This document shows, piece by piece, positions 8,312 to 9,012 of a DNA stretch of 64,000 nucleotides; the stretch's first letter is position 1, and the number at the start of each line of letters is the position of its first letter. The stretch lies in NCBI RefSeq assembly GCF_058153355.1, contig NZ_CM177019.1, one strand, 5' to 3'. A model generated the notes under the pieces. The model was given only the letters and a program-made list of their open reading frames with translations, had not been told where the DNA came from and ran no database searches. A program made the translations under genes and the position numbers.

Positions 8312-8372
8312 TGACACCATTAATTGACGTCACACTGCAAAGAGACTACGATGACACCATACAATGACGTCA
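8312..8372 (+). promoter_or_regulatory. Two 21-bp direct repeats, each containing the palindrome TGACGTCA; candidate operator/promoter of the downstream TA pair
   Basis: tgacaccattaattgacgtca (8312-8332) and tgacaccatacaatgacgtca (8352-8372), 40 bp apart, immediately 5' of the HicA-like ORF. Confidence 0.35.
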
Positions 8373-8384
8373 TGGATTGATAGT

Positions 8385-8663
8385 ATGATTAAGGTCAGCG
8401 CGCTAGGCTCTCGTCATAGAAAAACATTCGACGATGTAATGACGGAGCCGCCAAAATCTGGAATTAAATGGGATGATGTTGTTGCTCTCATTAAAGCGGT
8501 GGGTGGATCAATAAAAAATAACAACGGCTCCAGACGAAAATTTCAGATTGGAACGACCAAATTCAGCACACATGAGCCGCATCCAAAGAATGTGATGGAT
8601 AAAGGCGCAGTAGCAGGTCTTAAGGAGTGGTTTGTTAACTGTGTAGGGGTAGATTATGAATAA
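8385..8663 (+). CDS. HicA-like (YcfA family) putative mRNA-interferase toxin
   Basis: Small basic protein with GSRRKF...THEPHPK pattern resembling HicA; start ambiguous (ATG 8364 lies inside the repeat, ATG 8385 preferred); overlaps downstream partner. Confidence 0.4.
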   Translation: MIKVSALGSRHRKTFDDVMTEPPKSGIKWDDVVALIKAVGGSIKNNNGSRRKFQIGTTKFSTHEPHPKNVMDKGAVAGLKEWFVNCVGVDYE

Positions 8664-9012
8664 AGCATCGAACATTATCACAATTAAAGGTCAACCAGCC
8701 GCAGTGACATTTGAAGCCGATATCAACGCATTTCGCGGCAAGTTCCTCAATGTAAACGGTTATTGTGACTTTGTAGCCACAAGTATTGAGGCATTATATC
8801 GTGAAGGCGAAAGCGCTCTGGATGAGTGGATGGCGGATTGTGAAGAGGACGGTATTGCCCCTTTTCGTGAAGAAGAAGAGCAAAAACGCCTGACGCTTCG
8901 TGTGCCGCATCACATCGATTCGCGGCTGACCATCGTCGCCAGACAACATTCCATTTCAAAAAACCAGCTCATTATTGATGTCTTAGAACGTGAGTTTTCA
9001 GCCCAGATGTAA
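8656..9012 (+). CDS. HicB-like antitoxin with C-terminal ribbon-helix-helix
   Basis: 118 aa; C-terminus RLTLRVPHHIDSRLTIVARQHSISKNQLIIDVLEREF is RHH/CopG-like; 8-nt overlap with upstream ORF. Confidence 0.45.
   Translation: MNKASNIITIKGQPAAVTFEADINAFRGKFLNVNGYCDFVATSIEALYREGESALDEWMADCEEDGIAPFREEEEQKRLTLRVPHHIDSRLTIVARQHSISKNQLIIDVLEREFSAQM

What the first reader, a model, noticed from the sequence alone, without database searches (positions are those of the whole stretch)
8312..9012. HicAB-like toxin-antitoxin module with paired palindrome-containing repeats at the lfhA-yafL junction
K-12 has rayT at this junction; this window instead has a two-gene overlapping module, and its 5' region carries two 21-bp direct repeats each centred on TGACGTCA, typical of an autoregulatory operator. 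The toxin candidate (99 aa) is longer than typical HicA, so the assignment is tentative.
Basis: partly seen in the sequence, partly recalled or inferred. Interest (0 to 1): 0.45.

Follow-up and report, generated by a model that had tools for sequence, protein, structure and literature searches.

The report
Known HicAB toxin-antitoxin operon with operator
This is an ordinary, already published and annotated HicA-HicB toxin-antitoxin gene pair that replaces the rayT gene in about a quarter of E. coli strains. The repeats in front of it are most likely the binding sites through which the antitoxin switches off its own operon.

Summary
Window 8276-9035 is a 760-bp low-GC cassette between the stop codons of lfhA and yafL. 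It carries hicA (8385-8663, 92 aa, not 99) and hicB (8656-9012, 118 aa), which overlap by 8 nt.

- **Already known.** The same segment is present in 1369 of 5426 complete E. coli genomes, annotated as HicA/HicB. Its replacement of rayT at this site was published in 2012 (PMC3333891).
- **The repeats.** Each 21-bp repeat is a pair of 8-bp boxes separated by 5 bp. In 13 orthologous promoters from eight genera, four TGAYRTCA boxes keep fixed spacing while the surrounding DNA drifts. Box 2 carries the -35 (TTGACG) and box 3 abuts the -10 (TACGAT). This is strong comparative support for an autoregulatory operator.
- **One non-routine point.** This long HicA subfamily never has the catalytic histidine of characterised HicAs (Arg50 here). 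Instead it has conserved His63 and invariant His66. No member appears to have been tested.

Verdict: interpretation supported, already known, low interest.

The parts
8276..9035 (.). Variable cassette (promoter, hicA, hicB) that replaces the rayT/REP segment of K-12. It fills the whole gap between the last codons of lfhA and the stop codon of yafL.
   Evidence: Alignment with K-12 and strain 1190: homology ends at 8275 and resumes at 9036. GC is 0.439, against 0.580 for lfhA and 0.522 for yafL.
8312..8319 (+). Operator box 1, TGACACCA (degenerate copy of TGAYRTCA).
   Evidence: Aligned column block in 13 orthologous promoters.
8325..8332 (+). Operator box 2, TGACGTCA (perfect palindrome). It overlaps the -35 hexamer.
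8324..8329 (+). -35 hexamer TTGACG.
   Evidence: Promoter scan finds TTGACG-17-TACGAT. TTGA is invariant in 13 orthologues.
8347..8352 (+). -10 hexamer TACGAT. Its last T is the first base of box 3.
   Evidence: The T, A and final T of the hexamer are conserved across orthologues.
8352..8359 (+). Operator box 3, TGACACCA (degenerate). It covers the end of the -10 and the probable transcription start.
8365..8372 (+). Operator box 4, TGACGTCA (perfect palindrome), in the probable 5' leader.
8374..8377 (+). Shine-Dalgarno-like GGAT, 7 nt before the hicA ATG.
   Evidence: GGAT(G) sits at the same place in most orthologues.
8385..8663 (+). hicA, 92 aa. Long-form HicA-family toxin: an N-terminal helix followed by an alpha-beta-beta-beta-alpha core.
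8656..9012 (+). hicB, 118 aa. The N-terminal domain is HicB-like. The C-terminal domain is an Arc-like ribbon-helix-helix (about residues 74-115).
   Evidence: Pfam PF05534. PHROG HicB-like and Arc-like. Profile search against PDB matches AmrZ and Arc. Foldseek best match is B. pseudomallei HicB, 6g26_A.
8656..8663 (+). 8-nt overlap ATGAATAA (hicB start codon, hicA stop codon), suggesting translational coupling.
   Evidence: Sequence. The same 8-nt overlap is present in all orthologues with an intact hicA.

Best explanation
This is a type II toxin-antitoxin operon of the hicAB kind: the toxin gene comes first and the antitoxin has a C-terminal ribbon-helix-helix domain (Class 4 in Gerdes 2024).

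**Transcription (inferred).** A sigma-70 promoter, TTGACG (8324-8329), 17 bp, TACGAT (8347-8352), drives a bicistronic hicA-hicB transcript. hicB translation is coupled to hicA through the 8-nt overlap.

**Autoregulation (inferred from comparative evidence).**
- HicB dimerises through its Arc-like domain, and each dimer inserts a two-stranded beta-ribbon into one 8-bp box TGAYRTCA.
- The beta-strand LTLRV carries invariant Thr80 and Arg82.
- Four boxes are arranged as two pairs, 8-N5-8, 19 bp, 8-N5-8. They cover the -35 (box 2), the end of the -10 and the transcription start (box 3), and the leader (box 4).
- Bound HicB, alone or in complex with HicA, would therefore exclude RNA polymerase and repress its own operon.

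**Toxin action (inferred by homology).**
- The N-terminal domain of HicB binds and masks HicA.
- Free HicA arrests growth, most likely by cleaving RNA.
- The active site must differ from characterised HicAs. The essential histidine at the start of beta-2 is Arg50 here, while His63 and His66 are conserved.

**Shown versus inferred.** Shown here: gene structure, family and fold assignment, conservation of the boxes and promoter elements, and distribution in E. coli. Inferred: DNA binding by HicB, toxicity, RNase activity and translational coupling.
For: **Family and fold.**
- Pfam and PHROG matches.
- A profile of the HicA subfamily hits B. pseudomallei HicA at E=0.005.
- The HicB model's best matches are 6g26_A/B, and its C-terminus matches Arc and AmrZ.

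**Operator.**
- 13 promoters from E. coli, Salmonella (plasmid), Klebsiella, Photorhabdus, Morganella, Providencia, Pantoea and Xenorhabdus share four boxes. The intra-pair spacer is always 5 bp and the inter-pair spacer is 18-21 bp.
- Information content is 1.68 bits per column in the boxes, 0.68 between them and 0.39 upstream.
- TGAYRTCA is about 200 times denser in the 100 bp upstream of hicA than in the rest of the loci.
- Box variants keep the symmetry: TGACGTCA 28 of 52 boxes, TGATATCA 8 of 52.
- HicB beta-strand residues Thr80 and Arg82 are invariant.

**Selection.**
- Synonymous changes far outnumber non-synonymous ones among E. coli alleles. Against the divergent allele L006 the ratio is 9:1 for hicA and 6:2 for hicB.
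- In several species hicA is broken: nonsense, frameshift or truncation. hicB stays intact in three of these (L013, L020, L024), as expected if the toxin is harmful.

**Prior knowledge.** Characterised ribbon-helix-helix HicBs repress their promoters through palindromic operators that overlap the -10 (review PMC11594946).
Against: - There are no experimental data for this module or, as far as I could find, for any member of this long HicA subfamily.
- The histidine essential in B. pseudomallei, Y. pestis, N. gonorrhoeae and other HicAs aligns with Arg50 and is never His in 60 subfamily members. RNase activity is therefore less certain than for a canonical HicA.
- In N. gonorrhoeae HicA the histidine equivalent to His66 was dispensable for toxicity.
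- E. coli boxes 1 and 3 are degenerate (TGACACCA), so they may bind weakly or not at all.
- The promoter scan alone is not significant (3 sites found, 1.6 expected). A second -10-like TACAAT lies at 8360-8365.
- NCBIfam and PADLOC gave no match.
Confidence: 0.8

Rival explanations
1. The toxin is catalytically dead. HicA has lost RNase activity and the pair persists as a harmless relic, or as a HicB-centred regulator with HicA as a non-toxic partner.
For: The essential catalytic histidine of characterised HicAs is replaced (Arg50; no His at that position in 60 of 60 relatives). The equivalent of His66 was dispensable in gonococcal HicA. There are no PADLOC or NCBIfam hits.
Against: The substitution is a property of the whole subfamily, not a recent lesion. 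Other residues are strongly conserved: Pro22 and His66 in 60/60, His63 in 58/60, Ser49 in 59/60. Both genes are under purifying selection in E. coli. Inactivating lesions fall on hicA, with hicB left intact in three of the five affected orthologues, which is the pattern expected for a harmful toxin. PHROGs labels the matching family a toxin.
Confidence: 0.13
2. The repeats are not HicB operators. They could be sites for another regulator that recognises an ACGT-core palindrome (for example a MetJ-like protein), or leftovers of a local duplication.
For: The box core GACGTC resembles the MetJ metbox AGACGTCT (my own knowledge, not tested here). E. coli boxes 1 and 3 are identical degenerate copies, and the 13-bp units TACGATGACACCA and TACAATGACGTCA look like a tandem duplication.
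Against: The boxes travel with hicAB into unrelated genomic contexts, including an IncFII Salmonella plasmid and seven other genera, always at the same distance from the hicA start. Flanking DNA is not conserved. Metboxes are contiguous 8-bp tandems, not 8-N5-8 (my own knowledge). HicB carries an Arc-like DNA-binding domain with invariant beta-strand residues.
Confidence: 0.04
3. hicA starts at ATG 8364 and encodes the 99-aa protein read by the first stage.
For: The open frame is continuous from 8364. One database cluster representative, P0001, is 99 aa long.
Against: The 8364 ATG lies inside operator box 4. The same ATG in the Salmonella plasmid orthologue meets a stop after 5 codons. All orthologues start MIK at the downstream ATG behind GGAT(G). 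RefSeq annotates 8385. With the predicted promoter the transcript would begin only about 4 nt before 8364.
Confidence: 0.03

Closest known systems
Yersinia pestis HicA3-HicB3 (PDB 4P78)
   Different: HicA3 has the catalytic His28 in its GSH motif; here that position is Arg50. The Y. pestis operators are 15-bp inverted repeats; here they are paired 8-bp palindromes. Y. pestis has a 174-bp gap between hicA3 and hicB3, against an 8-nt overlap here. HicA here has an extra N-terminal helix.
Burkholderia pseudomallei HicAB (PDB 6G26, 4C26)
   Same: This is the best sequence-profile and Foldseek match for both proteins. Its HicB is a ribbon-helix-helix protein that binds a palindrome overlapping the -10.
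   Different: The B. pseudomallei HicA is about 60 aa and its His24 is essential. A single palindromic site is reported there, against four boxes here.
Escherichia coli K-12 HicAB (hicA/yncN-hicB/ydcQ, PDB 6HPB)
   Same: Same species and same family name. HicA is an mRNA interferase neutralised by HicB, with the toxin gene first.
   Different: It sits at a different chromosomal locus. K-12 HicB has a helix-turn-helix DNA-binding domain (Class 3) and the operon has two promoters. K-12 HicA is about 58 aa with a catalytic His23. No sequence match was detectable by phmmer.
Arc, AmrZ and MetJ type ribbon-helix-helix repressors
   Same: The HicB C-terminal domain matches Arc and AmrZ (E=0.04 and 0.009) and the PHROG Arc-like repressor family. 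These proteins recognise DNA with a beta-ribbon and bind adjacent short subsites cooperatively. Arc uses a 21-bp operator with two subsites (my own knowledge).
   Different: Here the domain is fused to an antitoxin domain. The box centres are 13 bp apart rather than 11 (Arc) or 8 (MetJ).

Membership tests
HicA_toxin homology family (Pfam PF07927) | Sequence match to the family profile. | tested here: met
   PF07927 E=1.7e-6, 28.5 bits, covering 50 of 58 model positions. Homologues carry a precomputed PF07927 hit. PHROG 8887 'toxin' E=5e-20. RefSeq names it a HicA family toxin.
HicA_toxin homology family (Pfam PF07927) | [quoted passage not shown] | tested here: met
Canonical (experimentally characterised) HicA RNases | Essential catalytic histidine at the start of beta-2 (the G-S-H motif). 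| tested here: not met
   His24 of B. pseudomallei HicA and His28 of Y. pestis HicA3 align with Arg50. That column is Arg in 46 of 60 relatives and never His.
Canonical (experimentally characterised) HicA RNases | Toxicity on expression, RNA cleavage, and neutralisation by the cognate HicB. | not testable with these tools
   Only indirect evidence is available: hicA-specific decay in orthologues and purifying selection.
Class 4 hicAB operon (HicB with C-terminal ribbon-helix-helix; Gerdes 2024, PMC10865869) | Bicistronic operon with hicA upstream of hicB. | tested here: met
   hicA 8385-8663 and hicB 8656-9012 are on the same strand with an 8-nt overlap. The arrangement is conserved in orthologues.
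Class 4 hicAB operon (HicB with C-terminal ribbon-helix-helix; Gerdes 2024, PMC10865869) | HicB N-terminal toxin-binding domain (partial RNase H-like fold). | tested here: inconclusive
   The model shows four strands followed by a long helix, with pLDDT about 90 over residues 11-70. Foldseek's best matches are B. pseudomallei HicB (6g26_A/B, probability 0.96-0.97) and its N-terminal domain (6g1c_B, TM 0.53), but the E-values are weak. No Pfam hit covers this domain.
Class 4 hicAB operon (HicB with C-terminal ribbon-helix-helix; Gerdes 2024, PMC10865869) | C-terminal ribbon-helix-helix DNA-binding domain. | tested here: met
   Pfam HicB PF05534 E=4e-10 over residues 60-110. Profile matches to AmrZ and Arc over residues 72-115. 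PHROG Arc-like repressor E=7.5e-5.
Class 4 hicAB operon (HicB with C-terminal ribbon-helix-helix; Gerdes 2024, PMC10865869) | Palindromic operator(s) in its own promoter, bound by HicB. | tested here: inconclusive
   Conserved palindromic boxes overlapping the -35 and -10 are shown. Binding by HicB cannot be tested here.

The most novel reading that the evidence does not exclude
The long-form HicA subfamily may have a rebuilt active site, or a mode of action other than the known HicA RNase chemistry.

- The subfamily signature is SKHRKT...GSR...HxPHP. It gave 359 cluster representatives at E<=0.001 and is widespread in Proteobacteria and beyond.
- The essential beta-2 histidine is gone.
- His66 sits on the neighbouring strand, at a position reported as close in space to the catalytic His but dispensable in a canonical HicA. 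In this subfamily it is invariant, together with His63 and a new N-terminal helix.

If so, the E. coli B1-type hicAB would be a convenient model for an uncharacterised branch of the family.
Probability: 0.3. Interest if true: 0.4.

Novelty: already known. Interest (0 to 1): 0.2.

Why it matters
It matters little beyond good annotation.

- The module is a routine accessory toxin-antitoxin pair that marks one of the alternative states of the lfhA-yafL junction in E. coli (hicAB, rayT with its REP elements, or REP elements only).
- The operator is a clean, ready-made test case. It has four 8-bp boxes with fixed spacing and natural symmetric variants (TGACGTCA and TGATATCA). It could be used to study how a tetrameric ribbon-helix-helix antitoxin reads paired sites.
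- The toxin belongs to a sizeable HicA branch that lacks the canonical catalytic histidine and seems never to have been tested. A simple toxicity and mutagenesis experiment would show whether the textbook HicA mechanism applies to it.

Tried and rejected
- **NCBIfam:** no meaningful hit for either protein.
- **PADLOC defence models:** none.
- **Single-sequence search of PDB:** nothing for HicA and only noise for HicB. Profiles were needed.
- **Rfam over 8100-9200:** only a sub-threshold snoRNA hit (16 bits against a 42-bit gathering score, E=0.75), rejected.
- **Terminator scan:** no intrinsic terminator after hicB in this window.
- **E. coli 'plasmid' hit (pMTY18781-1, 404 kb):** it carries the chromosomal lfhA-hicAB-yafL-dinJ context, so it is not evidence that the E. 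coli allele is plasmid-borne.
- **Third copy of the short repeat inside hicA (8431-8444):** it does not contain a TGAYRTCA box and was rejected as chance.
- **The two other TGACGTCA in the window (21361, 51376):** isolated, with no partner 13 bp away.
- **The 99-aa start:** rejected (see the third rival explanation).
- **Literature searches:** searches for this locus's protein accessions and for any characterised member of the long HicA subfamily found nothing. The P. aeruginosa, S. meliloti and N. gonorrhoeae HicAs are all canonical proteins that carry the catalytic His.

Full report
**What is in the sequence**

- The window is E. coli DNA. A full-length lfhA (the Flag-2 flhA homologue) lies at 6187-8280 on the + strand. 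yafL lies at 9035-9844 on the - strand. dinJ-yafQ and dpaA follow.
- Two overlapping + strand genes lie between the stop codons of lfhA and yafL.
- Alignment with K-12 shows that homology stops at 8275 and resumes at 9036. The 760-bp cassette 8276-9035 therefore takes the place of K-12's rayT gene and its REP elements.
- The cassette GC is 0.439, against 0.580 for lfhA and 0.522 for yafL. This is consistent with acquisition from elsewhere.

**The repeats are real and non-random**

- The two 21-bp repeats lie at 8312-8332 and 8352-8372 and match at 18 of 21 positions.
- No shuffle of the 104-bp intergenic region out of 3000 reached 18/21.
- The same 8-bp palindrome occurring twice was seen in about 1 in 1000 shuffles.
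- TGACGTCA occurs four times in 64 kb (0.9 expected), and two of those copies are here.

**This is already known**

- The 901-bp segment is present at 80% coverage or more in 1369 of 5426 complete E. coli genomes, always at this junction.
- RefSeq annotates it as 'type II toxin-antitoxin system HicA family toxin' (92 aa, starting at the position equal to window 8385) and 'HicB family antitoxin'.
- Ton-Hoang et al. (NAR 2012, PMC3333891) reported the same arrangement in 24 of 110 E. coli/Shigella genomes, mostly clade B1 (for example IAI1). In those strains tnpA_REP and its BIMEs between yafL and fhiA are replaced by hicA and hicB.

**Protein identity**

*HicA*
- It matches Pfam HicA_toxin (E=1.7e-6) and a PHROG 'toxin' family over its full length (5e-20).
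- An exhaustive search found 359 cluster representatives at E<=0.001.
- Their alignment gives the signature SKHRKTL..IF..P....I.W.DV..L..ALGG.V..G.GSR..F.L.G.....H.PHP....DKGAV.
- The AlphaFold model is very confident (pLDDT 96.3). It shows an extra N-terminal helix (residues 9-19) in front of an alpha-beta-beta-beta-alpha core.

*HicB*
- It matches Pfam HicB over residues 60-110 and a PHROG HicB-like antitoxin family.
- As a profile, its C-terminus matches the ribbon-helix-helix repressors AmrZ and Arc.
- Foldseek's best matches to its model are B. pseudomallei HicB chains.
- In Gerdes's 2024 scheme this is a Class 4 hicAB operon.

**The start codon**

The 99-aa reading is very unlikely.
- The 8364 ATG lies inside a conserved DNA box.
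- The equivalent ATG in the Salmonella plasmid orthologue hits a stop after five codons.
- All orthologues begin MIK (or MIN, MIQ) at the downstream ATG, preceded by GGAT(G).

**The operator**

*Source of the orthologues.* A scan of species-representative genomes and the plasmid collection gave orthologous hicAB loci (HicA 59-66% identical). They come from Photorhabdus, Morganella, Providencia, Pantoea, Klebsiella, Xenorhabdus, an unnamed enterobacterium and an IncFII Salmonella plasmid.

*The footprint.*
- Aligning 13 promoters shows four 8-bp boxes with consensus TGAYRTCA.
- The layout is box1-N5-box2-N18..21-box3-N5-box4.
- Mean information content is 1.68 bits in the boxes, 0.68 between them and 0.39 upstream.
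- The motif is about 200-fold enriched in the 100 bp before hicA relative to the flanking 3 kb.
- The commonest variant after TGACGTCA (28 of 52 boxes) is TGATATCA (8 of 52), a symmetric double change, as expected for a site read by a dimer.

In E. coli boxes 2 and 4 are perfect. Boxes 1 and 3 are both TGACACCA.

*The promoter.*
- The -35 TTGACG lies in box 2.
- The -10 TACGAT ends on the first base of box 3.
- The TTGA of the -35 and the T, A and final T of the -10 are conserved across genera.

*The reading head.* HicB positions Thr80 and Arg82 are invariant. By alignment with Arc they fall on the DNA-reading beta-strand.

All of this fits the behaviour of characterised ribbon-helix-helix HicBs, which repress through palindromes overlapping the -10. 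Binding itself remains an inference.

**The one unusual feature**

- The histidine at the start of beta-2 is essential for toxicity or RNase activity in B. pseudomallei (His24), Y. pestis (His28), S. pneumoniae (His36) and N. gonorrhoeae (His24) HicAs, and it is conserved in the E. coli K-12 and S. meliloti HicAs.
- In the profile alignment that position is Arg50 here.
- In 60 relatives it is Arg 46 times and never His.
- Instead His63 (58 of 60) and His66 (60 of 60) are conserved.
- His66 corresponds to gonococcal His40, which lies next to the catalytic histidine in space but was dispensable there.
- I found no experimental work on any member of this long subfamily.

Indirect signs suggest the toxin is nevertheless active.
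- Both genes are under purifying selection among E. coli alleles.
- In five orthologous loci hicA carries a nonsense, frameshift or deletion. hicB is intact in three of them.

**Verdict**

The module is already annotated and published, so novelty is nil for the finding as stated. The conserved four-box operator and the missing canonical catalytic histidine are modest additions worth a simple experiment.

Noticed in passing
window about 9018-9019 (between the hicB stop at 9012 and the yafL stop at 9035); L002 3814-3869: Most hicAB-bearing E. coli (for example strain 1190) carry a 34-bp insertion here with a perfect 10-bp-stem hairpin, GTCGGATGCC-GCGT-GGCATCCGAC. It may be a REP-like element or a bidirectional terminator. 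This window and the three closest genomes lack it, and no terminator is predicted after hicB.
   Followed up: partly
window 9994-10535: A second toxin-antitoxin pair, dinJ-yafQ, lies about 1 kb away on the other side of yafL. Strain 1190 has hicAB but lacks dinJ-yafQ, so the toxin-antitoxin content around yafL varies between strains.
   Followed up: no
window 1-8280: lfhA is full length (697 aa) and is preceded by Flag-2 genes (flhB, fliR, fliM/fliN-family and a sigma-54 regulator-like gene). This strain therefore keeps at least this end of the lateral-flagella cluster that is deleted in K-12 and in strain EC42405. The best E. coli match is only 97.7% identical.
   Followed up: partly
L013, L020, L021, L024, L026 (orthologous loci): hicA is inactivated in several species: a nonsense codon at position 82 (L013), a frameshift (L020), loss of the first 40 codons and the promoter (L021), only the last 32 codons left (L024), and a break after 33 codons (L026). 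hicB is intact in L013, L020 and L024 and frameshifted in L021.
   Followed up: yes
window 8312-8319 and 8352-8359: E. coli boxes 1 and 3 share the same non-palindromic variant, TGACACCA. It is unchanged even in the most divergent E. coli-like allele (L006), whose spacers have drifted. This may reflect selection for weaker sites or gene conversion between the two 21-bp units.
   Followed up: partly
window 8300-8307 and 8335-8342: A perfect 8-bp inverted repeat, CTTTGCAG / CTGCAAAG, brackets boxes 1 and 2. It is found only in E. coli alleles and not in other genera. Its meaning is unknown and it may be chance.
   Followed up: no
window 8347-8372: TACGATGACACCA and TACAATGACGTCA form a 13-bp tandem-like pair (10 of 13 identical). 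This gives a second, better -10-like hexamer, TACAAT, at 8360-8365, but without a good -35. Which one is used needs transcription-start mapping.
   Followed up: no
L022 about 1474-1497; L023 upstream of 1501: Distant relatives keep a similar site design. In a Bacteroidetes MAG (HicA 36% identical) TGATATCA-N5-TGATACTA lies directly before the start codon. In a SAR202 MAG the site is AGTATCA-N5-TGATACT.
   Followed up: partly
L006 (SFGJ01000062.1): A 3.4-kb contig labelled 'MAG: Clostridiales bacterium' carries a 99%-identical E. coli-type hicA with lfhA-like upstream sequence. It is probably a binning contaminant from Escherichia.
   Followed up: no
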